From Candidatus Hermodarchaeota archaeon (GTDB lineage Archaea; Asgardarchaeota; Lokiarchaeia; Sigyniarchaeales; SOKP01), in the NCBI GenBank assembly GCA_048885525.1, contig JBHLLP010000005.1:78345-119644 (forward strand): a DNA stretch of 41,300 nt, given 5' to 3'. Every line of letters begins with the position of its first letter. The first letter of the stretch is position 1. Below are positions 2,689 to 41,300 of this stretch, one piece after another. The notes under the pieces were generated by a model, which saw only the letters and a list, made by a program, of their open reading frames with translations, did no database searches and was not told the DNA's origin. The translations under genes and the position numbers were made by a program.

Positions 2689-2698
2689 AATTTTCATC

Positions 2699-3967: not shown

Positions 3968-3990
3968 TTTGAAGAGTGAAAGAATAAACT

Positions 3991-4521
3991 ATGTATCTAC
4001 TATTTCATATTGCATTACCATTAATATTGATGGAAATTCCACGAATTAAGCAATTAAGAATCAATAAACTTTCTTTAATAATAGGCTCGATACTTCCAGA
4101 TGTAATTGATAAACCATTAATTTTTTTTGGCTTGGGAAATGGAAGAAATATTTCTCATAATCTATTTTTTATTATATTAAGCTTCTTAATTCTTCATTTT
4201 TCAATTAAAAGAAAGACATCTATCTCTTTCCCATTTCTAATTGGATTAATTTTTCATATAATTCTAGATTTACCTGAAGTTCCATTATTTTACCCTTTTA
4301 TACCTTATGAATTTCCATACATTGATAATCCCATATTATTTTGGTTTAATAAATTATGGACAGATCCATTAGTCTTTATTACAGAATTTATTGGATTATT
4401 CTTCATTGTTTTTATTATAATCAATAATAAATTATACCATACTAAAGATATTAGAAATTATTTAGAAGGAATATATCAACCATCAATTCAGAATTCTAAC
4501 GAAAAGGAAATTGATATCTAA
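3991..4521 (+). CDS. Membrane-bound metal-dependent hydrolase (YdjM/DUF457-like)
   Basis: N-terminal H, GSILPDVID, RNISHN, HIILD and PLFYP motifs; several TM segments. Confidence 0.75.
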   Translation: MYLLFHIALPLILMEIPRIKQLRINKLSLIIGSILPDVIDKPLIFFGLGNGRNISHNLFFIILSFLILHFSIKRKTSISFPFLIGLIFHIILDLPEVPLFYPFIPYEFPYIDNPILFWFNKLWTDPLVFITEFIGLFFIVFIIINNKLYHTKDIRNYLEGIYQPSIQNSNEKEIDI

Positions 4522-4619
4522 GTCTTAAAAATGTTTATATTTATTACTTAAAATTAATAGTTTAATAACTAAAATGTGAAAAATTTAATACATAAACTCT
4601 TCTATTTCTAAATAGTAAA

Positions 4620-5360
4620 ATGAGTCAAAATAAAGTGCTCCATGTAATCGTCGATAATAGAGAGCAGAAATTAATGGCTCTATTGGATAAAAAAAAAGAT
4701 ACCATAACCTATGAATCAAAACAATTAGATATTGCCGATATCGTCGTTTCAAGTGAAGTTGCTATAGAGAGAAAAGAAGGATTGGACTTTGTTTCATCAA
4801 TAATGGATAATAGACTATTTGAGCAATTACTCCGATTAAAAGATACATATCAATATCCGATTTTGATATTGGAGGGCTTGAATGATGAGGTATTTGAAAA
4901 TACTGGCATGAAAATTTCATCAATTTATGGAGCTCTTTCTTTTATATCTTATAAATTAGGGATTTCTGTAATTCCAACGAGAAAACTGGAGGATACTGCA
5001 ATAGTCATTGAGAGAATAGCGTACAGAGAACAAGTAAAAGACAGCACGCCTATTTTTTCAAGAAAAGCACCTAAAGCAATGTCTAAGAAAGAAAGAAGGT
5101 CATTTATAATAGAAGGATTAGCAGATATAGGCGCTAAAAAAGCGGGCACATTAATAGATAAATTTAAAACACCATATGAAGTTTTTAGAGCTATTAAATA
5201 TACTGAAATATTATATACTAAGACAGGAAACCCTAAAGGAATTCGAGGTCCTCTTGAAGAACTTACTGGATTTGGTTGGAAATTTGTAGAGAAGAATCAA
5301 AAGCTTCTGTTTGGTAAAAAGAAAAAAAGTCCGCAGAAAAAAATTAATGATGAATATTAA
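4620..5360 (+). CDS. ERCC4/XPF-family structure-specific endonuclease (short form, nuclease plus HhH)
   Basis: VDNRE, ADIVV, ERKxxxDFxxSIxDxRL and ILEG motifs; HhH-like IGAKKA; possible degenerate PIP box QKKINDEY at the C-terminus. Confidence 0.88.
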   Translation: MSQNKVLHVIVDNREQKLMALLDKKKDTITYESKQLDIADIVVSSEVAIERKEGLDFVSSIMDNRLFEQLLRLKDTYQYPILILEGLNDEVFENTGMKISSIYGALSFISYKLGISVIPTRKLEDTAIVIERIAYREQVKDSTPIFSRKAPKAMSKKERRSFIIEGLADIGAKKAGTLIDKFKTPYEVFRAIKYTEILYTKTGNPKGIRGPLEELTGFGWKFVEKNQKLLFGKKKKSPQKKINDEY

Positions 5361-5366
5361 ATAATT

Positions 5367-6410
5367 CTAAAATTCAATTAGATCTTTTAGTCTAAAGTGC
5401 TGATATTTCTTTTTCTCTTGAAAAGGTGGGAAAAATTTCAGATCTATTTCCTTTCCTTTAATTATTTCTACTAAAGCAGTACCGTTTGTTTGGAATTTAT
5501 TTCCAGTTTCTTGAAACTTTACAAATACTGAATCATCAGAGAGAATTTGAAGTAATCCTTCAGCATTCTTTTCTACATTATAAAGTAATTTGAGACCACC
5601 TTCTAGTCTTTCTTTGGAAAGAGAACCTTCATAGATAGGAAAGTTCTTTGAACCAAAACCTTCTGAAATATAGTGATTCGTATGAAAATATCGATCTGCA
5701 ATATCTGTTCTATAAGATAAATTACCGGTAGTCTCTAGATTTACCGCCACATTTGCTTTTAAAGAGACTACGTTGTAGCTGACCCCACCAGAACGCGGTG
5801 TATGTCTCTGGGCTGCTAAGAGTGAATCTTCAATAGATTTTTGTTCAAATATATTTCGTCCAAGAAAATTACGAGATAACCCTACGCTTTTAGTAGGATC
5901 TGGTAATGAATTACAACAGAAAAAGATTCCGTAAGAGTTAAATCCAAATGCCACCCCTGGCAACATTCCAGGATAAGAATATACTAAAAAAGAGGAGCCA
6001 TTTTCTAATTTTTCAAATAAAAAATATGCATTTTTACCTATAATTGGATGAGCATCTTCATTGTGAGCAATTAATGTTTTATTTTCATATTTAAAGATCC
6101 CTGTTGAACAATCATCAACCCTTGGCATGTGAAAATAATTGTGGATGAAGATGTCATTAAATTCTATTCCAGATCCTTCAGCATACCCTCTAAGTTCTTC
6201 CATATATTGTGGAAAATATTTCTCTGAAATTTTTTTTACTTTTTTTAATCTCTCGGGGTTTTTGTTGTCCCAAACTTTATTAACTTTAAATCCTGGTAAA
6301 TTGTCTAATGTATTCTTTATCCGTTCCTTAAAATGTTGTCCAACTTGAAATCCGATTTCATAATTCGTTCCACTTACCCTTAATACAGGAAGAATTTCAT
6401 GGGAAATCAT
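5367..6410 (-). CDS. C45 family Ntn-hydrolase/peptidase (acyl-CoA:6-APA acyltransferase-like)
   Basis: YEIGFQVG, EELRGYAEG, DDCST (nucleophile Cys), AHNED, GFNSYGI and FHTNHY motifs. Confidence 0.8.
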   Translation of the reverse strand: MISHEILPVLRVSGTNYEIGFQVGQHFKERIKNTLDNLPGFKVNKVWDNKNPERLKKVKKISEKYFPQYMEELRGYAEGSGIEFNDIFIHNYFHMPRVDDCSTGIFKYENKTLIAHNEDAHPIIGKNAYFLFEKLENGSSFLVYSYPGMLPGVAFGFNSYGIFFCCNSLPDPTKSVGLSRNFLGRNIFEQKSIEDSLLAAQRHTPRSGGVSYNVVSLKANVAVNLETTGNLSYRTDIADRYFHTNHYISEGFGSKNFPIYEGSLSKERLEGGLKLLYNVEKNAEGLLQILSDDSVFVKFQETGNKFQTNGTALVEIIKGKEIDLKFFPPFQEKKKYQHFRLKDLIEF

Positions 6411-6636
6411 ATTAAGATTTAATTAATTATATGATTTTTAATTGTATTGAATTGAAATAAAATTAATGATGAATATTAAATTAAATATTTAGAAATAAAT
6501 TCATCTAAAATTGGATTAATATTTAATATTAATAAATTATACTAAACTTAAAAAATTTTAATAGAATTCTTTAACTCTTTTCTTATATCTTTATTAGTTG
6601 CCAAGCTAAAAATGTAGAAGAAGGAAATTTAGGGAC

Positions 6637-7401
6637 TTGATTATTTACCTTTCGCTATTTGCAATATTTTTTTCGAGTATGGTTTATGGCATAATTGGAT
6701 TTGGAGATGCTTTGGTTCTAATACCAATTATAACTTCTATCATAGGAATTAAAAATGCAGTGATTCTGGTAAACATTTGGGGGACATTTCCTGCTCTCTT
6801 AAATTTTATTAAATATCGAAAATTTTTGGATAAGGGATATTTTTTCCGATTTCTTTCATTAGGGATCCCCGCTACAATTCTAGGAACCTATTTAATTATT
6901 AATATAAGTGTAGAATGGATAGAATTATTTCTGGGTATTTTCATTCTTACTTATTCTTCTTTGAAGCTTATTAAATACTTTAAAAATCCCGAAAATATTG
7001 AAGTGAGAAAAGAAATTAATACAACCTCATCTCTCGTTTTATTTGGTGGATTTTCTTATGGTTTACTTACAGGATTGATTAGTGCAGCAGGACCACTTAA
7101 TGTTGCTATCTTAGAAAAAACGGGACATTATAGAGAAAGCTTTATTGAAAATTTCGCGGCAATTGGAACAATGTTATCAATATCAAGAATTCCATTATAC
7201 TTCCTAGGAAATATTTTTCCTTATGATTTGATTTTAGTGTTTTTGCTAGCTTTTCCAATAATTTTCATTGGGGCTAAACTTGGTCAGCAGATTACACCTA
7301 AAATCTCTGTAAGGAAATTCCAGATCATTGTATTTTTATTTCTTTTAGTGATAAGTTTAAAATCTATTATCTCTTCAATTATAAGTCTAATTTATTTGTA
7401 A
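6637..7401 (+). CDS. TauE/SafE family sulfite exporter
   Basis: GIIGFG..LVLIP motif, about 8 TM segments, GAKLG motif; TTG start. Confidence 0.8.
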   Translation: MIIYLSLFAIFFSSMVYGIIGFGDALVLIPIITSIIGIKNAVILVNIWGTFPALLNFIKYRKFLDKGYFFRFLSLGIPATILGTYLIINISVEWIELFLGIFILTYSSLKLIKYFKNPENIEVRKEINTTSSLVLFGGFSYGLLTGLISAAGPLNVAILEKTGHYRESFIENFAAIGTMLSISRIPLYFLGNIFPYDLILVFLLAFPIIFIGAKLGQQITPKISVRKFQIIVFLFLLVISLKSIISSIISLIYL

Positions 7402-7461
7402 TAGAATGATTTTTCATAAATATTAAATATATCATTCTCATCTTATTATCTATTAGAATAA

Positions 7462-7569
7462 ATGGATCCAACTATTATCGTCGTATTAGTTATTGTTTCT
7501 GTAGTTGTAGGAGTCGCAATAATAGCTTGCGTGTACATTTTTATGAAAAAAAGAGTAGCACCAGAATAA
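7462..7569 (+). CDS. 35-aa single-pass membrane microprotein (not in ORF track)
   Basis: MDPTIIVVLVIVSVVVGVAIIACVYIFMKKRVAPE*: one TM helix followed by KKR; AT-rich TATA-like element about 30 bp upstream; T-run downstream. Confidence 0.65.
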   Translation: MDPTIIVVLVIVSVVVGVAIIACVYIFMKKRVAPE

Positions 7570-7575
7570 TACTGA

Positions 7576-7600
7576 ATTTATTCTTTCTTTTTTTTTATTT
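7576..7600 (+). terminator. Oligo-T archaeal terminator
   Basis: Long T-rich tract immediately after the microprotein stop codon. Confidence 0.45.
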
Positions 7601-7690
7601 CTGCTAGAGACACTTTCTATAAATCATAAATCAACAATTCAAATAATTTTAAATATTTTTGAAAATTTTTGTCCAGTATTAGAAATTTAA

Positions 7691-8140
7691 GTGAATAGTA
7701 TGGAAAATCTAAAAATTGGACATTTTTTAATGAATTTTATGGGATTTTATATCTTAATTATCGGCATCTTATGGATATTTGTAACTGAAATCATGTTTGT
7801 GAGTGATTTTTTGTGGTATACGGGTGAAAGCTACCCAAGTTATTTAGCTTCTAACCCCATCTATGCAGAGATCTATATTATAACAAAAAAGTTGATCGGA
7901 TTTGTATTATTAGCGAATGGAATATTGGTTCTCTTTATCAACAATAAGAGTTATAAAAATGGGGAAAAATGGTCATGGTTTGCTCTTTTACTTTCAGGAG
8001 GTTTAACTTGGGGGACATTTATAGGTTATAAAATATTTATTGGTTACTACGGCGGTAGTATGATTACTTTTGTAATTGGAGCGGGACTTCTCGTAGCTGG
8101 TTTAGCTTTCCCATCGAAAGAAATCCTGGGTAAAAAATAA
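7691..8140 (+). CDS. Hypothetical 4-TM membrane protein
   Basis: Four hydrophobic segments; YKNGEKWSWF loop; probable start is the ATG at 7700. Confidence 0.7.
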   Translation: MNSMENLKIGHFLMNFMGFYILIIGILWIFVTEIMFVSDFLWYTGESYPSYLASNPIYAEIYIITKKLIGFVLLANGILVLFINNKSYKNGEKWSWFALLLSGGLTWGTFIGYKIFIGYYGGSMITFVIGAGLLVAGLAFPSKEILGKK

Positions 8141-8267
8141 GTCGAATTTTATAATTTTTTATTTTTTTTAAAAAGAAAGTAATTTCCAAAAAAGTCTCAT
8201 ATATAAGAAACTTAATCATATTATATTCAAAAGAATAATTAAAAGAAATTCATATAGTTAATTAAAA

Positions 8268-9458
8268 ATGCTTGATATTGGCAATATCAGAAATATTTGT
8301 GTTGTCGGAGCAGGTGTAATGGGGCAGGGCATTGCTCAAGTGTCTCTAATGGCGGGTTATAATGTTACTTTAATTGATTTACAAGAAGAAATTGTAGATA
8401 AAGGTTTAAAAAAGATCGAAGAAGGCTTAGAAAAGGTTAAAGCTAAAGGAAAATTGGAGGAAGGTGTCTCTATTGCTGATCTTATGAGAAATTGTACTAT
8501 ATCAACAGATCTGGTTTCTGCTGTTAAAAATGCTGATTTTGTATTTGAAGCAGTTGTGGAAAAGATGGAAATTAAAAAAGAAGTTTGTAATAGAGTAATG
8601 CAAAATTCACCATCCCATTGCATTTTTGCCTCAAATACGTCAACATTTAGAATAACTGAAATTGCAGAAGATTCAAATAGACCAGAACAGGTTCTTGGTA
8701 TACATTTTTTTCTTCCAGTCGCAGTTCAATGCTGCGTTGAAGTAATGAAAGGTGAAAAAACTTCTGATAAGGTTTTAGATGTAGGTGTAGCTATTGGTGA
8801 AAAATTACCTTGTATTAAAGGAAAAAGGCTTTCTGTGCGTATTGAAAAGGAGAGCCCAGGATTTATTGCAAATAGATTATTAATCCCCACCAGTATATAT
8901 ATGAATTGGATACTTGATCAAGCATATGAAAAGGGTATTCCATGGGAACAGATTGATGCTGATGCGGGAGGAGGACAATTAGTCTTCATGGGGCCATGTC
9001 TATTAGCTGATTATGTAGGTATAGATGTTAGCTATAACGGTATGAAAAGTTATGAAAAATATATATCTCCTGATTTTGCTCCAGGTAGAGTACTTACTAA
9101 ACTCATGAAAGAGGGAAACCTAGGGAAAAAGACAGGAAAAGGCTTTTATGATTGGACAAAAGGGAATCCAAAAATAAATTTGAGTAAAAAAGCTGATTTA
9201 TTTAATCCCGAGATTGCTTTAGCAATCGAATTAAACGAGGGTTGTAAACTTTTAGAAGAGAAAATTGTTTCGGGTTATAAAATTATTGATGAAATTGTGT
9301 TAAAAGGAACTAACATGCCTGGACCATTTAGTGCTGGAAGAAGCAATTATGAAAAATGGTCCAAATTATTGGAAGATATCTCAGAAAAAACAGGAAAGAA
9401 TTATCTAAAACCTTGCCAGTTAATGAAATCTGGTGATTTCGTTAAAATGAGAAGATAA
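8268..9458 (+). CDS. 3-hydroxyacyl-CoA dehydrogenase
   Basis: GAGVMGQGIA, EAVVE..K, ASNTST, GIHFF, PGFIANR, MGP..LAD.VGID and LGKKTGKGFY motifs; duplicated C-terminal domain. Confidence 0.9.
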   Translation: MLDIGNIRNICVVGAGVMGQGIAQVSLMAGYNVTLIDLQEEIVDKGLKKIEEGLEKVKAKGKLEEGVSIADLMRNCTISTDLVSAVKNADFVFEAVVEKMEIKKEVCNRVMQNSPSHCIFASNTSTFRITEIAEDSNRPEQVLGIHFFLPVAVQCCVEVMKGEKTSDKVLDVGVAIGEKLPCIKGKRLSVRIEKESPGFIANRLLIPTSIYMNWILDQAYEKGIPWEQIDADAGGGQLVFMGPCLLADYVGIDVSYNGMKSYEKYISPDFAPGRVLTKLMKEGNLGKKTGKGFYDWTKGNPKINLSKKADLFNPEIALAIELNEGCKLLEEKIVSGYKIIDEIVLKGTNMPGPFSAGRSNYEKWSKLLEDISEKTGKNYLKPCQLMKSGDFVKMRR

Positions 9459-9498
9459 TTTTGGGATATTAAATTTATTTAAAATAAAAAAAAAAGGA

Positions 9499-10758
9499 TT
9501 ACAATAATCCCATATATCTTTGAATTTGTGATTGAATGAGAAGTAGTTGGATATTACGTGCGCCACCAATAACTTCCTCAATTTTACTTATATCTAATAG
9601 TTCATCTAAAGGAGTGTTATCAGTAACGGAGATTCCGCCCATATGTTGTTGGACTTCATAACAGATTTCATGGGTAAGTTTTGCTAAGTAGTACTTTCCT
9701 TGAGAGGAAACGCTTGCAACCCACTTTTCAGCATCTTTTGAAGGTTTATCAGCAAATAATATTTTTTCATCATAAATTGTAGCAGCTTGTAAAGCAAGAG
9801 AAACGGCAGCAGTACATTTTGTTAACAAGTCTGCGAGACCATAACCAACACCTTGATATCGAATTACTGGTTTACCAAATTGTTTTCTTAAATTGGTATA
9901 GATAATCCCATAAATTAATCCCGAATAACATATACCAACTCCACTTCCCATAATACTTAATCTCTCAGGAACTAATCCTTCAAAAAGTCTCTTATATCCT
10001 AAGCCATCATCAGCAAGTATGTATTCTTTAGGAACCAACACATTATCTAATATTGTGTGTGATATCTGAACACGTGGTACTGAATTTATTTTTAATCTTT
10101 CAGTTCTTACTCCAAATTCGCGAGCTATAATAGCTTGAACCATCGTATCCCTAGGGTTACCTTCATCATACACACCGTAACACGCAAAGTAATCAGCTAC
10201 GGCACCATTTGTAGTATAGACTTTCTCTCCATTAAAAATAACTCCATCATCGGTTTTTGTACATTTAGTAGTCAGATTAACAGCATCAGATCCCCTTTCA
10301 GGTTCGGTAATACCAATACAACCAATTTTTTCTCCAGATAAAAGCTCATCTTGTACCTTTTGTGGTATATTGGACTCACCTCCATGATCATAATAATGAA
10401 ATGTAGGGTTACCGCATAAAATTCCCGTTGCTACGCGAGCTAGTTCTAATTGCGGATCCAGTAGTGAGATGTGTGTACCTAATAATATTTCCTTTTTCAT
10501 TCCATATGGTTTAAAATCTTTCCAAGGGTTAATTCTTTGTATATAACCATGTTTTCCAAGTTCTGGAAGGAGACCATATACATCCTTTGATTTATCAATT
10601 TTTGGATGCAAATCTAAGCAGAATTCTTGAAGTTTATTACAATATTCTTGCTCTTCATTATTTAGCATTGGAAAAACATTGTCGTTAAAGATTTTGAAGA
10701 CGTTTTCCAAGGACATCTTTTCGAGAATTTGATCATTAATAATTTTCTCTTGAAACAT
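9499..10758 (-). CDS. Acyl-CoA dehydrogenase
   Basis: ITEPERGSD, NGEKVYTTNG, RKQFGKP and QHMGG motifs; PERL together with VIGG suggests LCAD/IVD-type placement of the catalytic Glu. Confidence 0.9.
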   Translation of the reverse strand: MFQEKIINDQILEKMSLENVFKIFNDNVFPMLNNEEQEYCNKLQEFCLDLHPKIDKSKDVYGLLPELGKHGYIQRINPWKDFKPYGMKKEILLGTHISLLDPQLELARVATGILCGNPTFHYYDHGGESNIPQKVQDELLSGEKIGCIGITEPERGSDAVNLTTKCTKTDDGVIFNGEKVYTTNGAVADYFACYGVYDEGNPRDTMVQAIIAREFGVRTERLKINSVPRVQISHTILDNVLVPKEYILADDGLGYKRLFEGLVPERLSIMGSGVGICYSGLIYGIIYTNLRKQFGKPVIRYQGVGYGLADLLTKCTAAVSLALQAATIYDEKILFADKPSKDAEKWVASVSSQGKYYLAKLTHEICYEVQQHMGGISVTDNTPLDELLDISKIEEVIGGARNIQLLLIQSQIQRYMGLL

Positions 10759-33080: not shown

Positions 33081-33821
33081 ATGAGTAGAGATAAGCAGTT
33101 AATAGAATTAATCCAAAAGGGTTCACTCCGTGGGATAATCTTTGATTTTGATGGCACATTATTAGATATTCGTCAAATACTTGAAAAATCAATAGAGGAA
33201 GTGCTGGAAAAAGAAGTCAATGAGGCAGAATTTGATATGGATAATACTATTCAAGAAATTGGTGCTTTACTAGAAACAATTCAAGGATATCCTCTACCCA
33301 AAGTCTTACTGGAGTCTTATGAAATTTTCAAATATATAACCGCCCTTAAGAACTTAACATATTTTAAGAAATTACGGATTGCCGTGAAGATTTTCTCTAA
33401 ATATTTAGAATATTCAAAAGAAGCATTATTTTTTCCATCAGTAAAACCTCTTTTAAAAAAGTTGAAGAAAATCTACGATCTATTTATTGTCTCTCATAAT
33501 AAAACCGAGACTATAATTGAGCATCTCGAAAAAGAAGGTTTCAATAACTACTTTAAAGGTATTTATGGAAGTGATAAAATTCCGGTACAAAAACCAGACC
33601 CAATGGCACTTCAACCAGCATTAGAAAATTATGAAAAACGTCGTAGGGGTGAATTCTTAATGATTGGTGATATGCCTTCAGATATCACTGCTGGTCAAGA
33701 AGCCGGATTATGGACAATAGGTGTAGCAAGCGGAGTAAGTAAAAATGAAATTTTAAGAGAATATGAACCTGACTTATTAATTGATTCTTTAGATGAATTA
33801 TTGAAAATAATACAAAATTAA
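33081..33821 (+). CDS. HAD-superfamily hydrolase (phosphoglycolate phosphatase-like)
   Basis: FDFDGTL, IVSH, KPDP and MIGDMPSD..AG..AG motifs. Confidence 0.88.
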   Translation: MSRDKQLIELIQKGSLRGIIFDFDGTLLDIRQILEKSIEEVLEKEVNEAEFDMDNTIQEIGALLETIQGYPLPKVLLESYEIFKYITALKNLTYFKKLRIAVKIFSKYLEYSKEALFFPSVKPLLKKLKKIYDLFIVSHNKTETIIEHLEKEGFNNYFKGIYGSDKIPVQKPDPMALQPALENYEKRRRGEFLMIGDMPSDITAGQEAGLWTIGVASGVSKNEILREYEPDLLIDSLDELLKIIQN

Positions 33822-33946: not shown

Positions 33947-34981
33947 ATGATACCAATTAATCTGCCAACAATAAAAAAAATTGTTTTAATTATTAATGCA
34001 ATTATAGCCACTCTAGCCATTGTTATCCTACTTTTAAATTTAGATATATTTTATGTCTCTCATGCGAGTACAGGGATGTTACCTGTCATTACTTATGAAA
34101 CATATTCAACTATAGAGACTTCATATCTATATATACTCATTGCTTTAATTGGTATTAGTTCATATTTATCATTAACAAAAAGATTAAAAAAATGGGAATC
34201 CGTTCGGATTTTAATTATATCTCTATTAAGTCTTATTCCAATAATTTTCTTAATGTTATTGAGTGTAAATCCTCATTTTTTAATAATTTTACCCAGAGGA
34301 AGTGCACCTACTAGAATAATCGAGATATATCCCGGTTTGATTTTCATTATAATTCTTTTTATCGCATTTTTTGTAAATACCCTTCTTATAATCCAACAAG
34401 AAGGATACATTTTCAAATACGGTATCGCTTTGTCTTTATTTATTGGAGCTTTACTAATAAGTCATGCTATTCATGAGTCTGGACATGCATTATTAGCAAT
34501 TTTAAGCGGGGGTCAAGTTGTTAAATTTTATCCCTTTCCTATTTTCCAAGATGGAGTTTTAAGAACTGGTTATGTGACGTATCAAAACGTTCCTTCATTT
34601 CTAATTCCTTTAGTTACATTAGGAGGAGAGGTCTTACAATGGATTGTAATTCCAATAATTTTATTCATTTTAATCCGGATTAGAACCCCTAGGATTTTAA
34701 ATCTATTTCTAATATTTTTATTAGCAATATCATGGTTAGATTTTCCACTTTATGTAATAAATAATTCGCTCGGTTTACCTCATTGGTTTGTAATTGGATG
34801 TGATCATGGAGATATCATTAGTTTCACTATTCAAACAGGATTCCCTCTATGGGCAATGCTTATCTTTGCGTTTTTGCAGCTGGCTATTGGAATCATAATT
34901 TTTTACTTTAAGTTATTAAAGAATTATGTTCCGATTAAAAATCAGTTTGCTAGGAAAAATATTCCTTTAATAGACAAATAA
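33947..34981 (+). CDS. Membrane zinc metalloprotease-like protein (M50/M50B-like)
   Basis: HESGH within a TM region, downstream LGG and HGD; four extra N-terminal TM segments. Confidence 0.65.
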   Translation: MIPINLPTIKKIVLIINAIIATLAIVILLLNLDIFYVSHASTGMLPVITYETYSTIETSYLYILIALIGISSYLSLTKRLKKWESVRILIISLLSLIPIIFLMLLSVNPHFLIILPRGSAPTRIIEIYPGLIFIIILFIAFFVNTLLIIQQEGYIFKYGIALSLFIGALLISHAIHESGHALLAILSGGQVVKFYPFPIFQDGVLRTGYVTYQNVPSFLIPLVTLGGEVLQWIVIPIILFILIRIRTPRILNLFLIFLLAISWLDFPLYVINNSLGLPHWFVIGCDHGDIISFTIQTGFPLWAMLIFAFLQLAIGIIIFYFKLLKNYVPIKNQFARKNIPLIDK

Positions 34982-35137
34982 GCTTTTATATTTAATTTTA
35001 TATTTATTTTTTTTTTATTCGTGAATAAAAGACAATAAATATAAAAATGAAATCTGTTATTATTTCTTTAATCTAATCTACTGATAAATAAGAATATAAC
35101 ATTACTGTCAAAAATATTTTTACAAGAGTTATTTATA

Positions 35138-37558
35138 ATGATGTTAAAAAGAAATAAACGATTTATTGCTATTTTCCTAATTTTTTTGACTACTGCGATG
35201 ACATTCAGTTTCTTCATTTTAAAGACTCAAGCTGGACCTTATATACCAGAACAACATGCTAACAATCAATGGCATTGGGAGGTTGATGTAGGAGATCAAC
35301 TGTATTTCGAAGGAGAATTTGTAGTTGCTAACGGTACTACAGGTAAAGTGGAGAAGATGTTTAAGGATATTTGGATCTATAACATTACCTCCATTGTAAA
35401 TACCACTGTCGATTGGTTAGGATCGAATGAAGTCTCTGTAATAAACGCGGCTCAATGTTATTATAATGTCAGTTCAGGTGAGTTAGAAGCGTATTATCCC
35501 CCTAGTGAATTTGCTTTTTTCGGATATAATAGTACAGATTCTATAAAACACAGAATCAGAGCAGGCCAGAGTGGAATGCCCTTTGTACTCCCTATAAATG
35601 GTTCAAAGGGTTTGGAAGTTGATGTCTTAGCACCAATAATAAATGAAACAATGTATTATCCTTATGCACAAATGGGACAATTTAACGCGTTTGATAGTTT
35701 TACATCTGATCCAAATCCAAGTATCAATAAGATTCATTTCACTAATTCTTCAGATTATTATTTCTCTGAGGGATATTATTACGATAACGGAACATTGAAT
35801 TATGGATCAGCATATTTAAGGATTCAAATGGGTGAAGGTCCAATGTTAATCAACGCTACAATGAAACAGGTATTTGATCCTTATATCACTGATGAAGTTC
35901 AATGGGGTGTTAATGTTGGAGATGAGTTTTTCTATGATGCGTTTGATCCAGATGATGGATTTGATTTTGTCGATGATGCAGATGATGTCAAGGTAAAGAT
36001 TACAGATATTTCTGATGTTTTATTTAATAAATCAAATAATGGCTTTTCAGAAGAGCTGACTAAAATGGTTTTTCAATGTGTCTTTGCGGATATATATAAA
36101 TGGAATGGAACTGATTATGAATTCGGAGGTAATAGCATTGTAGGTGCGGCTAATAATTTTTATCCCCAATATTATGATGAAGTAGGGGATATGGTAATGC
36201 CATTCATCTGGCCAATAAATATTCCGATTGAAAACATTGGATTTATGTGGAATTATGATACTTTGGGGATCTGGGAAAATATGCCATTTGATACGATTGT
36301 TATGACTGAAAATGGATTTTTAGAGTTTGAATTAAGCAACTCTACAGGAATAGATTACGTAAAAATCGTAATAAGTAAGACCACTGGTGTTGCTCAATCA
36401 TTTTTCAATATAAATCCTGATGATTTTATGTTCTATGAACTAAAAACACAGACGTTAGTTGATTGGTCTGTAAATATTGGTGATGTTATTTATTACAAAG
36501 CTAATCAAGATGAGCATTATGATATGAAAGCGACAATTATCGGAACTTATACAGTTTATGCAAATATGACTTTCCTTGTTAATGAATATAATTTATATGG
36601 AATTCCATTAGCTTTACCCTCTGGTCAACCAGAATATCAATTTTTCACTTACCTCGTAGCTGAACTTGAATATTGGGATCCAGACACAGTATCTTGGTCT
36701 TATGCGACTACACAAATTATTTCTATAGCTAATATTTATTGGCCTGTATCACCACTAGTATTTGAAATTGGAGGTCCTCCAATGCTAATGCCCGAGGGAA
36801 CTTCTAGTTCAGATCTTTCAGATTTCTTTGATATGTGGAGTACAGTTTATGATGATATAACTTTTTCTACGGGTTATGTATTGCTCAGAAATACTACAGC
36901 GAATAAAGAATTAAATTACTATTTTGATGAAACTTCAGGTAGAATGACTATGATGTATGGATGGGCGAAAATGCCAATTCCTGGTGAGGATTGGACGTAT
37001 ATGTCAATCTATCCTAAATTTTACCATCCACTTACTGTAGGTACTAATACTTTTTCTGTAGGAAGTTATCATCCATCAGGTATAACTGTAAATATAGAAA
37101 TGTATGTAAATTCCCCAGGAGGAGCATATATTGCTACTTACTATCCTATGAACCCTGTGAATGAACCTTTACCAGTAGGAGAATCTTTTGCTTTCTTTGA
37201 TCAATTAATGACCAACTTTAGCTCAATTGTAGGGAATATTACCATGACAATCATACTCCCACCAAGTATAGATCTTAGCACAATAGGATTCTTTTTCTAT
37301 GCTTACAATATGAGTGGAAGCGACAAATGGGACCCAGCACCTCCAGAATTTTATCTCACTTCTGTTACTTATAATTTTGCCTCAAATTCAATTATAATTG
37401 AAATGCCACCCTTCCCTTTTGGATTAATATCAGCTATGGCTTACATTGATTCGGAAGAATTACCCGGCGAAATCCCAGGATATAACATTTTCCTCATATC
37501 ACTAATGATTGTTGCAATATCTGGAATTTTAATTAGGAAAATTCGAAAAAATAAATAA
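35138..37558 (+). CDS. Secreted cell-surface glycoprotein with three internal repeats and a Loki-CTERM-type sorting signal
   Basis: Signal peptide; three WxVxxGD repeats; many N-x-S/T sequons; C-terminal IPGY + TM + basic tail. Confidence 0.82.
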   Translation: MMLKRNKRFIAIFLIFLTTAMTFSFFILKTQAGPYIPEQHANNQWHWEVDVGDQLYFEGEFVVANGTTGKVEKMFKDIWIYNITSIVNTTVDWLGSNEVSVINAAQCYYNVSSGELEAYYPPSEFAFFGYNSTDSIKHRIRAGQSGMPFVLPINGSKGLEVDVLAPIINETMYYPYAQMGQFNAFDSFTSDPNPSINKIHFTNSSDYYFSEGYYYDNGTLNYGSAYLRIQMGEGPMLINATMKQVFDPYITDEVQWGVNVGDEFFYDAFDPDDGFDFVDDADDVKVKITDISDVLFNKSNNGFSEELTKMVFQCVFADIYKWNGTDYEFGGNSIVGAANNFYPQYYDEVGDMVMPFIWPINIPIENIGFMWNYDTLGIWENMPFDTIVMTENGFLEFELSNSTGIDYVKIVISKTTGVAQSFFNINPDDFMFYELKTQTLVDWSVNIGDVIYYKANQDEHYDMKATIIGTYTVYANMTFLVNEYNLYGIPLALPSGQPEYQFFTYLVAELEYWDPDTVSWSYATTQIISIANIYWPVSPLVFEIGGPPMLMPEGTSSSDLSDFFDMWSTVYDDITFSTGYVLLRNTTANKELNYYFDETSGRMTMMYGWAKMPIPGEDWTYMSIYPKFYHPLTVGTNTFSVGSYHPSGITVNIEMYVNSPGGAYIATYYPMNPVNEPLPVGESFAFFDQLMTNFSSIVGNITMTIILPPSIDLSTIGFFFYAYNMSGSDKWDPAPPEFYLTSVTYNFASNSIIIEMPPFPFGLISAMAYIDSEELPGEIPGYNIFLISLMIVAISGILIRKIRKNK

Positions 37559-37618
37559 AACAAATAATATCCTCATTTTTTTATTTTATAATTTTTATAG
37601 CATTTTATAAAGAGATAA

Positions 37619-37843
37619 AGCCTCAAACCATCCATTACATATAATTTTGTCGACAATTCAATGACGTTTGAAATCCCGATTGATGGTCCCTATATGGTAT
37701 TATCGGCTATTGCATATCAACCGATAGAACCAAGTGACGGAGATGGAACACCAAAAATCCCAGGGTATAACATATTCTTAATATCATTTATGATCATAAT
37801 TACATCTGGCATACTAATTAAAAATTTAAGGAAAAAAAAATAA
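37619..37843 (+). pseudogene. 5'-truncated paralog of the upstream surface protein (C-terminal part with Loki-CTERM-type signal)
   Basis: SITYNFVDNSMTFEIP..LSAIAY..IPGYNIFLISFM aligns with SVTYNFASNSIIIEMP..ISAMAY..IPGYNIFLISLM; similarity begins upstream of the ATG at 37661; in-frame TAA at 37616. Confidence 0.7.
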
Positions 37844-38063: not shown

Positions 38064-39740
38064 GTGAAAACTATGGAACTTGAAAAAATGGAAAGGAAAG
38101 GAGTGGATACCGCTCGAGAACTCGACCTCAAGAGGAGTATCGAAGAAAAAATGCAAGAAGAGTTGAAATACGAGAAACGTCACCAAGATTGGACGTATAA
38201 GATTATGAAATTCAATCCAATCGACCCTTTGAATGACTTATATCGGTACATTATAAAGCGGATGGACTTGAAACACATCGAAGGACGCCTACAATGGTGG
38301 GCTGCTTACATTTATATTAAATGGGCAGTCCGAACGTTCTGGAACTTCAAAGCGGAATATCCAAAAGGGAATATGTTCCCAGAATATGGTCCGGGTATTT
38401 TAGTGGGCAATCACGAGTCGCACATCGACCCTTTCTTTTATGGAGCAGCATGTCATCGCAGAATCCGTTATATGAGTAAATTGGATAACTTTAAGACTCC
38501 TGTAGTTAGAACTCTCTTTAATAACCTTGGAGCATTTAGGGTAGATCGTGAAAATCCTGAACATGGGTGGGAAAAAGCAAAGGAAATAATACGAGGTGGA
38601 GAATGGGTAGGTATATTCCCAGAGGGTACTAGATCTAAGGATGGAGAACTTGGAGAGTTTAAAACTGGAGCAGTAAGACTTGCAATTGAGATGGATGTAC
38701 CAATAGTTCCTATGGCGGTAGTAGGTTCTATAAATGCGTTACCTAAAGGAAAGCTAGTAATGAAACCAACTCAAGTTATAGTACGTGTTGGCGATCCAAT
38801 TTATTATCATGACTATGATATCAATACTGTATCTTATGAAGACATAAGAAGATTAACTGATGAATTGAGAACAATAGTTTGGGAATTACGCGAGGGGATC
38901 TATGGAAAAGAAGATGAGGAAGAACTTTCTATTGGTTCACTAGAAGATGCTGAGAAAAAACCTAAGTTTAACTTCATGAGCTATTTAAAGGATCAAGGGA
39001 AAGGAATTCTAAGGTTGATTGATGATTCTTGGTACGCTCTTTTAAAAGCTTTAGAAGAGTTTGGAGTAAGGAAGCAGTTTCAACACACAGTTCAATGCTT
39101 TTCAGGAGATTTAGTTTGTGGATGGTCTGATCTTATGATGCCTTATAAGGTAATAGACTTTGATAAATATATACCAGCAGAAGGTGCTGCTCTTATTTGT
39201 CCAAGCCATAATTCTGAATGGGATGTACTTATTTTAGCAGCAAGTATAATACATCATCCACCTAGACGAGTTATGTGGCAAATGGCAAAACAATCGTTAT
39301 TTAAAATACCCTTAGTGAATGCGTGGGTTAGAAATCATCATGCATTTCCATTAAAACGTGGAGAGCATGACGTAGATTCGTACAATTATGCGAAAGAACT
39401 TCTCAATAGTGGAGAAGTGGTCTGTACCTATCCAGAAGGAACTACTAATCCTGGAAATGGTCAGCTTCTAGAAGGTCATACTGGTCCCATGAGATTAGCA
39501 ATAGAAACACAGGTTCCAATAATTCCTATTGGTATAACTGGCACTGAAGCTACATATCCGAAACATGCAAAAATGTTGAAATTTTATAAGGGTCAAATAT
39601 TAAGATGTGGTCCTCCATTTATGGAACACCAAAAGTACTGGGGTAAACCAATGCCAGATTACGATGAGCTTAAGAGATTAACAGCAAATATGATGGATAA
39701 AATCAGAGATTTACTTTTCTATGATACTCATGATGTATGA
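38064..39740 (+). CDS. Tandem lysophospholipid acyltransferase (two PlsC domains)
   Basis: Domain 1: NHESHID, FRVDR, FPEGTRS, PIVP. Domain 2: SHNSEWD, FPLKR, YPEGTT, PIIP. Probable start is the ATG at 38073. Confidence 0.88.
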   Translation: MKTMELEKMERKGVDTARELDLKRSIEEKMQEELKYEKRHQDWTYKIMKFNPIDPLNDLYRYIIKRMDLKHIEGRLQWWAAYIYIKWAVRTFWNFKAEYPKGNMFPEYGPGILVGNHESHIDPFFYGAACHRRIRYMSKLDNFKTPVVRTLFNNLGAFRVDRENPEHGWEKAKEIIRGGEWVGIFPEGTRSKDGELGEFKTGAVRLAIEMDVPIVPMAVVGSINALPKGKLVMKPTQVIVRVGDPIYYHDYDINTVSYEDIRRLTDELRTIVWELREGIYGKEDEEELSIGSLEDAEKKPKFNFMSYLKDQGKGILRLIDDSWYALLKALEEFGVRKQFQHTVQCFSGDLVCGWSDLMMPYKVIDFDKYIPAEGAALICPSHNSEWDVLILAASIIHHPPRRVMWQMAKQSLFKIPLVNAWVRNHHAFPLKRGEHDVDSYNYAKELLNSGEVVCTYPEGTTNPGNGQLLEGHTGPMRLAIETQVPIIPIGITGTEATYPKHAKMLKFYKGQILRCGPPFMEHQKYWGKPMPDYDELKRLTANMMDKIRDLLFYDTHDV

Positions 39741-39760
39741 TGTATTGAGGAAATATTTAG

Positions 39761-40816
39761 ATGGAAACAAGTGAGCACATAAGTAAAAAAAAAATTAAAG
39801 TTGGAATACCAAGAGCACTTCATTTTTATAGATATTTTCCATTCTGGAAAAAATTACTTGAAGAATTAGATGCTGAGATCATTTTAAGTCCACCAACTAA
39901 TAAGAAGATTGTTGAGGAAGGTGTAACCCATGGATTTGGAGAGCTCTGTATTCCTGTAAAGATATATTATGGTCAAGTACTGAAGCTAGTTAGAGAAAAT
40001 CCAGATCTAGATTATATATTTGTTCCTAGGTATGTCGCAGAAGTGAAGGAAGCGTATTTCTGCCCTAAATCTCTATCTTTACCTGATGTTATTAAAATCT
40101 TACCAGAAATTCCGAAAATATTAAACTTTGAAGTAAATGTAAAAGAATTTCCAATAGCATCCTCTGCCATCGAGCTTGGAAGAGAATTAGGAAAAACTCA
40201 AAATCAAGCACTTAGCGCATACAGAGAAGCACAAAAATATTTTGATGAATATCACGAGTTCCTAAGAAATGGTGCTCCCGTTAATCATGCATTAAGGTTA
40301 GTGGAAAGGAACCGCCCATTTACTCTACCCAAGAAAAAGCAAAAAGGAGATATTAAGTTCTTACTTTTGGGTCATGCTTATAATATTTTTGATACCTTTA
40401 TCAATTTAGATTTTGAGAAGAAATTAAGAGATCAAGGTGTTGAAGTACTCACAATCGAAAATCTACCCGAATCTCTTTTCAAGGAACCGGTAATCATAAA
40501 TAAGCGTTTACGTAATTATTGGCGTCATGAAGAGGAAATTATGCAATCTATTAGATATTTCCTTACAAAAGGTCGAGGTGAAATTGACGGAGTTATTTTC
40601 CTTATAAGTTTTGCTTGTGGACCAGATAGTCTAATTTCTGAATTAATTATGCGAGATATGAAAGTTGTAGGATTAGCTTTCTTGGAAATTACAATGGATG
40701 AACATTCTGGAGAAGCAGGTTTATTAACTCGTGTTGAATCCTTCGTTGAGATGGTTCGGAGGAAAAAGAAGAAGTTAGCAACGGATTTAAAAAAGAAAGA
40801 AACAATAAAAATTTGA
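39761..40816 (+). CDS. DUF2229 / 2-hydroxyacyl-CoA dehydratase-related Fe-S protein (PlsA/Ger reductase-module-like)
   Basis: KVGIPRAL..Y...PFW, LSPPT, ELCIPVK, YIFVPR, FCPK, LGHAYN, FACGPDS and DEHSGEAG..TRVESF motifs. Confidence 0.8.
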   Translation: METSEHISKKKIKVGIPRALHFYRYFPFWKKLLEELDAEIILSPPTNKKIVEEGVTHGFGELCIPVKIYYGQVLKLVRENPDLDYIFVPRYVAEVKEAYFCPKSLSLPDVIKILPEIPKILNFEVNVKEFPIASSAIELGRELGKTQNQALSAYREAQKYFDEYHEFLRNGAPVNHALRLVERNRPFTLPKKKQKGDIKFLLLGHAYNIFDTFINLDFEKKLRDQGVEVLTIENLPESLFKEPVIINKRLRNYWRHEEEIMQSIRYFLTKGRGEIDGVIFLISFACGPDSLISELIMRDMKVVGLAFLEITMDEHSGEAGLLTRVESFVEMVRRKKKKLATDLKKKETIKI

Positions 40817-40938
40817 TTTATTATCAATACTAGACTTTATAAATAAAAGAAAAAGTGTAAATTCTTTAGTATCTTCTTTATAATAATATATATATAACAA
40901 TAATCGTTTCGTTCAATAATCCCAACCCTGTTTTTGAC

Positions 40939-41300
40939 ATGAGCGAAGAAAAACTAGCAATACATAAAAGAAAAGTAGAAGCTATCTCTGAAATGGTTAG
41001 AAATGCGTACGATAACGCGAAGCCGGGGGAATATTTCTCTCTAAAAAAAGCGAACGTTTCCCACATGGCTCCACAACCGGATAACCCGATCTATAGTGAC
41101 AAGCCGATAGACGTGAAGTCACTTACAGACATTATTGAGATAAACCCGGATACAAGGATGTGTATTGCAGAAGCAGGGGTTACTTTTGTTAGGCTTGCAA
41201 GAGAAACCTTAAAGTATGGGCTCGTACCGCAATGTGTTTCCGAGCTCAAGGGAATCACGATAGGCGGGGCAGTAGCAGGATGTTCAGTTGAATCCATGTC
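40939..41300 (+). CDS. FAD-binding (PCMH/VAO-type) oxidoreductase, DHCR24/BfaA-like; runs off the window; not in ORF track
   Basis: Open from ATG 40939 to the window end: HKRKVEAI...IDVKSLTDIIEINPDTRMCIAEAGVTF..L..ETLKYGLVPQCVSELKGITIGGAVAGCSVESM. Confidence 0.8.
   Translation, partial: MSEEKLAIHKRKVEAISEMVRNAYDNAKPGEYFSLKKANVSHMAPQPDNPIYSDKPIDVKSLTDIIEINPDTRMCIAEAGVTFVRLARETLKYGLVPQCVSELKGITIGGAVAGCSVESM

What the first reader, a model, noticed from the sequence alone, without database searches (positions are those of the whole stretch)
38064..41300. Candidate acyl-ester to ether (plasmalogen/alkyl-ether) lipid locus in an Asgard archaeon
Seen: three co-oriented genes, PlsC-PlsC, then a DUF2229 Fe-S protein after 20 bp (with a GAGGA SD), then a FAD reductase after 122 bp. 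Known: PlsC-family enzymes acylate glycerol phosphate. Anaerobic plasmalogen synthase PlsA/PlsR and glycerol ester reductase Ger combine BcrAD-type activase domains with DUF2229/2-hydroxyacyl-CoA-dehydratase-like modules to reduce lipid esters to vinyl or alkyl ethers. BfaA/TmsA and DHCR24 reduce lipid C=C bonds. Archaea classically make isoprenoid ethers only. Inference: a pathway that builds fatty-acyl phospholipids and converts them to non-isoprenoid ether lipids, bearing on the lipid divide at eukaryogenesis. Caveats: the activase and second reductase subunit are not in the window, and the FAD gene may be transcribed separately.
Basis: partly seen in the sequence, partly recalled or inferred. 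Interest (0 to 1): 0.82.

Follow-up and report, generated by a model that had tools for sequence, protein, structure and literature searches.

The report
Lokiarchaeal acyltransferase plus split ether-reductase operon
The window ends in the front half of a conserved Lokiarchaeial (Asgard) operon that joins the genome's only active-looking fatty-acyl transferases to a three-protein, ATP-driven iron-sulfur reductase related to the bacterial enzymes that turn ester lipids into ether lipids, which is a testable but unproven route to non-isoprenoid ether lipids.

Summary
There is a 558-aa double PlsC, a 351-aa stand-alone DUF2229 protein 20 bp later, and a FAD_binding_4 ORF 122 bp further on.

A beta subunit, a BcrAD activase, a small ORF and a degenerate PlsC-like gene open contig C59. 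In many relatives they follow the DUF2229 gene directly. PlsC2 sits directly upstream of the DUF2229 gene in 77 of 80 named Promethearchaeota loci. All three PF01553 domains of this genome lie in this operon.

The alpha subunit has a HAD/BCR/DCCP fold and three invariant Cys. It is modelled to pair with beta. It forms its own clade, only weakly sister to the activase-fused PlsA/Ger-type proteins.

The "FAD reductase" is not a separate gene. It is the cut 5' end of a 4.85-kb cassette: a DHCR24-like flavoprotein fused to alpha', then activase', then beta'. The cassette is 92-97% identical in DNA across genomes whose flanks are 71-73% identical. It splits the operon and breaks the assemblies.

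Ester-to-ether chemistry remains inferred. PlsC and Ger homologs in Lokiarchaeota are already published. This scan has noted the same operon and cassette in 20-30 other genomes.

Verdict: a real feature, a new variant of a known kind, of moderate interest.

The parts
33081..33818 (+). HAD-family phosphatase (PF13419). In most relatives it is the first gene of the operon, directly upstream of PlsC2. Here it is separated from PlsC2 by a 4.2-kb insertion.
   Evidence: Pfam. It is 80% identical to the HAD gene upstream of PlsC2 in G003. A HAD gene lies upstream of PlsC2 in most of the 80 loci.
38064..39740 (+). PlsC-PlsC fusion (558 aa) with two complete lysophosphatidate-acyltransferase-type domains
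   Evidence: PF01553 twice and TIGR00530 above cut-off. HX4D motifs at H117-D122 and H382-D387; EGT motifs at 185 and 456. The two domains are separate genes in families f2 and f3 and fused in f1.
39747..39751 (+). GAGGA Shine-Dalgarno-like motif 9 nt before the alpha start codon
   Evidence: Read directly from the sequence
39761..40816 (+). Alpha (Red1-like) subunit: a stand-alone DUF2229 protein with invariant C63, C101 and C286
   Evidence: Pfam. Invariant Cys. AF2 model with pLDDT 85; top Foldseek hits are HadB/C, DCCP, BzdNO and MbdON. Heterodimer with C59 beta supported by the complex model.
40817..40897 (.). AT-rich spacer (13.6% G+C) with TATA-like runs. This is the last host-type sequence before the cassette.
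   Evidence: The DNA identity to relatives changes at about 40898.
40898..41300 (+). First 403 bp of the roughly 4.85-kb mobile cassette. The ORF from 40939 is the 5' end (120 codons) of the DHCR24-like FAD_binding_4-DUF2229(alpha') fusion gene. It is cut by the end of contig C5.
   Evidence: DNA identity to L142, L114 and L064 is 92-97% here against 71-73% for PlsC2 plus alpha. Full-length orthologs are 803-837 aa and are followed by activase' and beta'. The contig ends here.

Best explanation
The window holds the front half of a Lokiarchaeial lipid operon. Its ancestral order is HAD phosphatase, PlsC, PlsC, alpha, beta, BcrAD activase, a small protein of about 64-80 aa, and a PlsC-like protein.

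Shown: alpha (this window) and beta (contig C59) are paralogous subunits of the HAD/BCR/DCCP fold. Each carries three invariant Cys at the modelled interface. A dedicated BcrAD-family activase is encoded beside them.

Inferred: the activase dimer takes a low-potential electron, probably from ferredoxin, and uses ATP hydrolysis to inject it into the [4Fe-4S] clusters of the alpha/beta core. The core then reduces the sn-1 acyl ester of a glycerophospholipid to an alk-1-enyl or alkyl ether, as PlsA/PlsR and Ger do in bacteria. The two active PlsC domains would make or re-acylate that glycerolipid. The PlsC-like protein has lost its catalytic His and may only bind lipid.

In this genome the operon is split between alpha and beta by a laterally acquired cassette that encodes a second such enzyme. 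The alpha' subunit of that enzyme is fused to a DHCR24-like flavoprotein, a candidate C=C (vinyl-ether) saturase. Only the first 403 bp of the cassette were assembled.
For: Operon conservation. PlsC2 lies directly upstream of alpha in 77 of 80 named Promethearchaeota loci. Beta, activase, small ORF and PlsC-like gene follow contiguously in at least 14 of them. The same order holds at only 45-59% identity in families f2 and f3.

Own genome. Beta, activase, small ORF and PlsC-like gene sit at C59:145-3276. All three PF01553 domains of the genome lie in this operon.

Enzyme class. DUF2229 at E 4e-45. Three invariant Cys in alpha and three in beta, shared with alpha', beta', the BBD D-domain and R466. 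Foldseek top hits are HadB/C (3O3M), DCCP (6ENO, 7YYL), BzdNO and MbdON, with E 8e-10 to 7e-7.

Alpha-beta pairing. The complex model scored ipSAE 0.75 against a best control of 0.00. That mark was reached by 58 of 80 solved complexes and 2 of 110 mismatched pairs. The runs agree in at least 94% of contacts and the partner pLDDT is at least 88. All six Cys lie in the interface. Like complexes (HadBC, BzdNO) are solved, so the pass may reflect likeness rather than this copy binding.

Link to PlsA/Ger. Ger is defined as BcrAD-BcrAD-DUF2229 plus HGD-D-like segments (PMC13159169). PlsA/PlsR belongs to the HAD/BCR family (PMC12838417). A PlsA/PlsR-like pair (985 aa with two BcrAD domains plus DUF2229, then 466 aa) is inserted at the same alpha/beta junction in 9 loci. 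The Loki alpha clade is sister to the activase-fused clade in the tree, with weak support of 85.

No CoA-transferase or 2-hydroxyacid dehydrogenase was found among the operon's genes by Pfam.
Against: There is no biochemical or lipid evidence. Cultured Promethearchaeum MK-D1, a member of another family, yielded only phytane and biphytanes after ether cleavage (PMC7015854).

Alpha is not inside the PlsA/Ger-type clade, and the sister relation is weak (SH-aLRT 85, quick tree). The experimentally verified PlsA, PlsR and Ger sequences could not be fetched for a direct comparison.

More distant Asgard alpha-beta-activase triads (31-35% identity) and a Dehalococcoidia alpha-beta fusion have no lipid genes beside them. 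The triad alone therefore does not indicate a lipid function.

The third PlsC-like protein lacks HX4D and EGT.

The junction between C5 and C59 is inferred, not assembled.
Confidence: 0.48

Rival explanations
1. The alpha/beta/activase enzyme works on an acyl thioester (acyl-CoA or acyl-ACP) or a free acid derivative, for example by radical dehydration or reduction as in 2-hydroxyacyl-CoA dehydratases. The PlsC enzymes then install the modified chain on a glycerol phosphate. On this reading the operon makes unusual ester lipids, not ethers.
For: The closest solved folds are CoA-ester enzymes: HadBC, BzdNO and MbdON. Alpha lies outside the PlsA/Ger-type clade. Triads without lipid neighbours exist.
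Against: The HGD-D match is sub-threshold and covers only the last 60 residues, whereas DUF2229 scores E 4e-45. The operon holds no CoA-transferase, CoA-ligase or 2-hydroxyacid dehydrogenase. The genome has a separate true HGD-D system with its own activase on C2.
Confidence: 0.2
2. The operon remodels or salvages lipids taken up from bacterial partners. Lyso-lipids are re-acylated by PlsC and ester bonds are then reduced or cleaved by alpha/beta. The operon is not a de novo fatty-acyl ether membrane pathway.
For: Lokiarchaeia are syntrophs with limited biosynthesis (PMC7015854). The genome keeps the archaeal GGGPS. The upstream HAD phosphatase fits headgroup or lyso-lipid processing.
Against: Two PlsY homologs are present, so sn-1 acylation could be endogenous. 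Nothing in the sequence separates salvage from synthesis.
Confidence: 0.17
3. One reading: the FAD gene is an independent C=C reductase (BfaA/DHCR24-like) of this same operon, possibly transcribed separately.
For: The fragment carries a FAD_binding_4 domain. The nearest ESM Atlas cluster is automatically named Delta(24)-sterol reductase, score 0.98.
Against: Every full-length ortholog is an 803-837-aa fusion to a DUF2229 alpha' domain, followed by its own activase' and beta'. The unit is 92-97% identical in DNA across genomes whose flanks are 71-73% identical. It also occurs away from the PlsC operon in G215, G171 and G168. Five stand-alone homologs had no DUF2229 or BcrAD neighbours.
Confidence: 0.05
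4. The alpha/beta/activase enzyme is a DCCP-like reductase of a small molecule, and its position beside the PlsC genes has no functional meaning.
For: DCCP is among the top fold hits. NCBIfam gives a weak double_cubane match on alpha'.
Against: The adjacency survives divergence to 45% identity and gene fusion or fission of PlsC. All the genome's PF01553 domains flank the enzyme on both sides.
Confidence: 0.07

Closest known systems
Anaerobic plasmalogen synthase PlsA/PlsR (Clostridium perfringens CPE1194/1195; single-gene forms in Enterococcus and Lactococcus)
   Same: The module set is the same: a BcrAD-type activation module plus two paralogous reduction/dehydration modules (Red1 is DUF2229, Red2 is PlsR-like) of the HAD/BCR family with [4Fe-4S] sites (PMC12838417).
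   Different: Here the three modules are three separate proteins with a single activase domain, not Act-Act-Red1 plus Red2. Alpha falls in a separate clade from all activase-fused proteins. The genes sit in an operon with PlsC acyltransferases and a HAD phosphatase. The host is an archaeon. The product is unknown.
Glycerol ester reductase Ger (Thermotoga maritima Tmari_0479; Desulfatibacillum alkenivorans SHJ90043)
   Same: Both carry the DUF2229 reduction domain with HGD-D-like segments and depend on an activase. Ger homologs were already reported in Lokiarchaeota and Heimdallarchaeota (PMC13159169).
   Different: Ger is one roughly 1400-aa BBDHDDH polypeptide. P0002 has no B domains. The Ger-like proteins of this genus are the separate 985-aa plus 466-aa pair, which was not found in this assembly. 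No direct comparison with Ger was possible.
(R)-2-hydroxyacyl-CoA dehydratases (HadBC with HadI; HgdAB with HgdC) and class I benzoyl-CoA reductases
   Same: Same fold (Foldseek E of about 1e-9), a heterodimer of paralogous subunits, three-Cys cluster sites, and an ATP-driven BcrAD activase.
   Different: Sequence identity is 12-16%. The Pfam HGD-D match is below threshold. There are no CoA-transferase or aromatic-degradation genes nearby. The genome has its own HGD-D system elsewhere.
Bacterial PlsC (1-acyl-sn-glycerol-3-phosphate acyltransferase)
   Same: Both domains pass TIGR00530 and keep the HX4D and EGT motifs.
   Different: Two domains are fused in one 558-aa protein with a charged N-terminal extension. 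The acceptor, its stereochemistry and the acyl donor are unknown.
DHCR24 / BfaA(TmsA)-type VAO-family flavoproteins
   Same: The cassette's N-terminal 465 aa carry FAD_binding_4. The nearest Atlas cluster is automatically named Delta(24)-sterol reductase. An Anaeramoeba protein annotated as DHCR24 is 57% identical.
   Different: The domain is fused to a DUF2229 subunit, and that fusion was seen in only three 90%-identity clusters. No curated family match was found, and the nearest solved relatives are cytokinin oxidases. The substrate is unknown.

Membership tests
PlsC / LPAAT (PF01553, TIGR00530) | Acyltransferase domain scoring above the curated cut-offs | tested here: met
   PF01553 197.5 bits (cut-off 23), in two stretches. 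TIGR00530 164 bits (cut-off 102.95).
PlsC / LPAAT (PF01553, TIGR00530) | Catalytic HX4D and EGT(R) motifs | tested here: met
   HESHID at 117, HNSEWD at 382, FPEGT at 185 and YPEGT at 456 in P0001. The motifs are NOT met in the C59 PlsC-like protein or its orthologs.
PlsC / LPAAT (PF01553, TIGR00530) | Acylation of lysophosphatidate | not testable with these tools
   Needs an enzyme assay
HAD/BCR/DCCP-type ATP-dependent Fe-S enzymes | Catalytic subunit fold | tested here: met
   AF2 model with pLDDT 85.2. The top 20 Foldseek hits are all HadB/C, DCCP, BzdNO or MbdON, with probability 1.00 and TM about 0.5.
HAD/BCR/DCCP-type ATP-dependent Fe-S enzymes | Conserved Cys ligands for [4Fe-4S] in both subunits | tested here: met
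   Alpha C63, C101 and C286 and beta C51, C81 and C309 are invariant in 17-sequence alignments. All six lie in the modelled interface. Cluster binding itself has not been shown.
HAD/BCR/DCCP-type ATP-dependent Fe-S enzymes | Cognate BcrAD_BadFG activase encoded alongside | tested here: met
   C59:1372-2373, PF01869 E 3e-47. It is contiguous with alpha and beta in relatives.
PlsA/PlsR - Ger (lipid ester reductases) | DUF2229 (PF09989) reduction domain | tested here: met
   E 4.1e-45 over profile positions 1-217 of 218
PlsA/PlsR - Ger (lipid ester reductases) | Two BcrAD activation domains fused N-terminal to DUF2229 (BBD) | tested here: not met
   P0002 is 351 aa with no BcrAD domain. The activase is a separate single-domain protein.
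PlsA/PlsR - Ger (lipid ester reductases) | Groups within the clade of PlsA/Ger-type proteins | tested here: not met
   The activase-fused proteins form one clade (support 100). Loki alpha plus alpha' form another (98). The two are sisters at only 85 (quick tree). No experimentally verified member was in the tree.
PlsA/PlsR - Ger (lipid ester reductases) | Converts an sn-1 acyl ester to an alkenyl or alkyl ether under anoxia | not testable with these tools
   Needs anaerobic expression and lipid analysis
2-hydroxyacyl-CoA dehydratase (PF06050 HGD-D) | HGD-D domain above the gathering score | tested here: not met
   24.2 bits against a cut-off of 28.4, and only residues 274-331 match
2-hydroxyacyl-CoA dehydratase (PF06050 HGD-D) | Neighbouring CoA-transferase or 2-hydroxyacid dehydrogenase | tested here: not met
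   None among the operon's genes in this genome or in relatives
DHCR24/BfaA-like flavoprotein | VAO-type FAD_binding_4 domain | tested here: met
   31.4 bits on the 120-aa fragment and 53.2 bits on the full-length ortholog
DHCR24/BfaA-like flavoprotein | Specific relationship to sterol delta-24 or methylene-lipid reductases | tested here: inconclusive
   Supported only by automatic names. NCBIfam gave no specific family. The nearest PDB relatives are cytokinin oxidases.

The most novel reading that the evidence does not exclude
Lokiarchaeia make fatty-acyl-derived (non-isoprenoid) alkenyl or alkyl ether glycerolipids using their own fully split version of the PlsA/Ger reductase, hard-wired to dedicated PlsC acyltransferases. 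The laterally spreading cassette adds a DHCR24-like flavoprotein fused to the reductase, which saturates the vinyl ether. That fusion would then name the still unassigned enzyme for the plasmalogen-to-alkyl-ether step.
Probability: 0.27. Interest if true: 0.85.

Novelty: new variant of a known kind. Interest (0 to 1): 0.55.

Why it matters
How a eukaryote with ester-linked fatty-acyl lipids arose from an archaeal host with isoprenoid ether lipids is an open question. PlsC and Ger homologs in Lokiarchaeota have been listed before as scattered genes. Here they turn out to be one conserved operon of five to seven defined genes, which also holds all of the genome's PlsC-family domains. That turns a gene-presence argument into a compact construct that can be expressed anaerobically and assayed. 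It also names the lipid products to look for in Asgard enrichments. The inserted FAD-fusion cassette is a second, independent hint that this enzyme family is coupled to C=C reduction in lipids.

Tried and rejected
1. The genome-contig scan with the alpha alignment returned only Promethearchaeota among its best 80 loci. No named bacterial PlsA or Ger could be fetched, so no tree with verified enzymes was built.

3. Terminal direct or inverted repeats were sought at the cassette ends in L142. None was convincing, and no integrase was seen, so the mode of transfer is unknown.

4. None had DUF2229 or BcrAD neighbours.

5. The neighbours of the distant Asgard triads (families f7, f29) were scanned. 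They include NosD/beta-helix, LVIVD and ABC transporter genes but no lipid genes.

6. The Dehalococcoidia alpha-beta fusion sits among purine genes.

7. The rest of the cassette and the 985/466-aa pair were searched for in this assembly and not found with these queries.

8. A selenocysteine reading of the in-frame TGA flagged in some 840-aa frames was rejected. ORFs called from the first start codon are 803-837 aa and carry no stop.

9. The careful tree search did not finish, so only the quick tree is reported.
Full report
OBSERVATION. Three co-oriented ORFs end the window: 38064-39740 (558 aa), 39761-40816 (351 aa) and 40939-41298 (open at the 3' end).
- The first has two PF01553 domains and passes TIGR00530. 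Both domains keep the HX4D and EGT motifs.
- The second is a full-length DUF2229 domain (E 4e-45) with a sub-threshold HGD-D tail.
- The third carries the middle of a FAD_binding_4 domain.
- The window end is also the end of contig C5.
- Orthologs of 80-92% identity are labelled Promethearchaeota or Promethearchaeia, so the Asgard assignment holds.

THE MISSING PARTNERS. The genome has three BcrAD_BadFG genes. One lies on contig C59 in this run:
- C59:145-1335, a 396-aa DUF2229/HGD-D-like protein, here called beta
- C59:1372-2373, the activase
- C59:2330-2572, an 80-aa ORF
- C59:2590-3276, a PlsC-like protein

In relatives these genes follow the alpha ortholog directly.
- In G034 the order is PlsC2, alpha, beta, activase, PlsC-like, at 66-85% identity to the proteins of this genome.
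- In family f3 (G026) it is HAD, PlsC, PlsC, alpha, beta, activase, PlsC-like.
- In family f2 (G032, G025, G038) it is PlsC, with or without a second PlsC, then alpha, beta, activase, at about 45% identity.

Among 80 named species-level loci, PlsC2 is directly upstream of alpha in 77. At least 14 of the 80 show the whole uninterrupted operon. All three PF01553 domains of this genome lie in this operon. The genome also holds two PlsY homologs and the archaeal GGGPS.

WHAT THE ENZYME IS.
- Alpha has three invariant Cys (C63, C101, C286) and beta has three (C51, C81, C309). These are shared with the paralogs alpha', beta', the D-domain of the 985-aa protein and the 466-aa protein.
- The AF2 model of alpha (pLDDT 85) matches HadB/C, the double-cubane protein DCCP, and the benzoyl-CoA reductase subunits BzdNO and MbdON. 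It matches nothing else at comparable scores.
- The alpha-beta complex model scored 0.75 against a best control of 0.00. That mark was reached by 58 of 80 solved complexes and 2 of 110 mismatched pairs. The runs agree in at least 94% of contacts and the partner pLDDT is at least 88. All six Cys are at the interface. Related complexes are solved, so this shows likeness rather than proof of binding.

These results make an activase-driven, HAD/BCR-type iron-sulfur enzyme the well-supported reading. The genome has a separate classical HGD-D protein with its own activase on C2. The DUF2229 pair is therefore not the organism's ordinary dehydratase.

RELATION TO PlsA/PlsR AND Ger. Ger is defined as BcrAD-BcrAD-DUF2229 followed by HGD-D-like segments (PMC13159169). 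PlsA/PlsR is Act1-Act2-Red1 plus Red2 (PMC12838417). The present system has the same modules as three separate proteins.

In a quick maximum-likelihood tree of the alpha-type domain:
- All activase-fused proteins (bacterial forms of about 1000-1500 aa plus the Loki 985-aa protein) form one clade, support 100.
- Loki alpha and alpha' form another clade, support 98, with alpha' nested inside Loki alpha.
- The two clades are sisters with only 85 support.

Alpha is therefore a relative of the PlsA/Ger type and works like it in architecture, but it is not a member of that clade. Verified PlsA, PlsR and Ger sequences could not be retrieved. More distant Asgard triads and a Dehalococcoidia alpha-beta fusion lack lipid neighbours. 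The lipid link rests on the Loki-specific PlsC association, not on the triad itself. One metagenomic contig carries a 1438-aa BBD protein, an activase and an alpha-beta fusion in tandem. This echoes the Loki loci in which a 985-aa plus 466-aa PlsA/PlsR-like pair is inserted between alpha and beta.

THE FAD GENE.
- In every relative that has it, the N-terminal FAD sequence runs into a contig end.
- Where it is assembled, it is an 803-837-aa protein: FAD_binding_4 (about 1-465), then DUF2229 alpha' (43% identical to alpha). A 343-aa activase' and a 444-aa beta' follow it.
- In DNA the window is 71-73% identical to relatives across PlsC2 and alpha but 92-97% identical from about 40898 onward. The whole unit of about 4.85 kb is 90-97% identical among genomes whose flanks are 76-79% identical.
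- It is inserted after alpha, or inside beta leaving fragments, or elsewhere in the genome.
- Its FAD part is richer in G+C: 42-43% against 29% for the genome.
- No terminal repeats were found.
- The fusion occurs in only three 90%-identity clusters. The nearest stand-alone flavoproteins are 62% identical (one is named Sigynarchaeota), and an Anaeramoeba protein annotated as DHCR24 is 57% identical. The nearest Atlas cluster is automatically named Delta(24)-sterol reductase.
- C59 begins with 42 bp that match the spacer lying about 80-100 bp after the cassette's end in L142.

The most economical layout for this genome is therefore PlsC2, alpha, the cassette (only its first 403 bp assembled), then beta, activase, small ORF and PlsC-like. 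The near-identity of the cassette among co-occurring populations explains why assemblies break there.

WHAT REMAINS INFERRED. The substrate and the product are inferred. Cultured MK-D1 showed only isoprenoid hydrocarbons after ether cleavage (PMC7015854). The third PlsC-like protein has lost its catalytic His in all orthologs examined, so it may bind lipid rather than transfer acyl groups. Five stand-alone homologs of the flavoprotein had no PlsA-like neighbours.

PRIOR KNOWLEDGE. PlsC and PlsY in Lokiarchaeota (PMC6737245) and Ger homologs in Lokiarchaeota and Heimdallarchaeota (PMC13159169) are published. In the library searched, "DUF2229" occurs in only three works, and none was seen to describe this operon. 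Within this scan the same operon and the same cassette were already noted in some 20-30 other genomes, with the same cautious verdicts. I reached my reading before consulting those notes.

VERDICT. This is a real, conserved feature and a new variant of a known kind. The enzyme class is secure. A lipid substrate is likely. Ester-to-ether chemistry is plausible at about one in two.

Noticed in passing
window 40898-41300; also L009, L011-L014, L016, L017, L085-L098 and others: In more than 20 independent assemblies the contig ends 20-220 codons into the same FAD-fusion gene. The cassette is far more conserved than its flanks, which is a likely cause of assembly breaks between co-occurring populations.
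   Followed up: yes
G000 C59:2590-3276 (L003): The third PlsC-fold protein has lost the HX4D His and the EGT motif in all five orthologs aligned. It looks like a conserved pseudo-enzyme or lipid-binding module.
   Followed up: partly
window 33947-37843: A 4.2-kb insertion separates the HAD phosphatase from PlsC2. It holds a 344-aa polytopic membrane protein, an 806-aa secreted or anchored protein with only a weak DUF7225 hit, and a 60-aa ORF. In most relatives the HAD gene and PlsC2 are adjacent.
   Followed up: partly
L142:4752-4803 (P0125 residues about 455-475): The linker between the FAD domain and alpha' is encoded by a 25-27-nt tandem duplication (the peptide EKTNYKKKN followed by EKTNYKEKT). 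This may mark the fusion joint.
   Followed up: no
G000 C2:65092-67128 and C22:13165-16401 (L001, L002): There are two further BcrAD activases. One sits beside a true HGD-D protein (378 aa). The other lies between a ketopantoate-reductase-like gene and a protein of at least 446 aa with no Pfam match.
   Followed up: partly
P0141: A protein of the anaerobic protist Anaeramoeba flamelloides annotated as 24-dehydrocholesterol reductase is 57% identical to the Asgard flavoprotein domain. This could reflect gene transfer between prokaryotes and that eukaryote, or contamination.
   Followed up: no
L142 (DATKTW010000084.1), L111, L100, L102, L125, L127: Contigs carrying this Loki-type operon at 80-86% identity are filed under a Nanopelagicaceae bacterium and under Borr-, Odin-, Hod- and Thorarchaeota MAG names. 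These are probably mis-binned or mislabelled records.
   Followed up: no
L158 (JGI 3300032156 contig), 2546-10178: A 1438-aa BcrAD-DUF2229 protein, a 337-aa activase and a 725-aa alpha-beta fusion lie in tandem in an unidentified organism. This parallels the co-location of fused and split systems in Lokiarchaeia.
   Followed up: no
G000 C25:23036-23548 and C18:58023-58535: The two PlsY (PF02660) matches lie in open frames of 404 and 413 aa, about twice the usual PlsY length, so they may be fusions.
   Followed up: no
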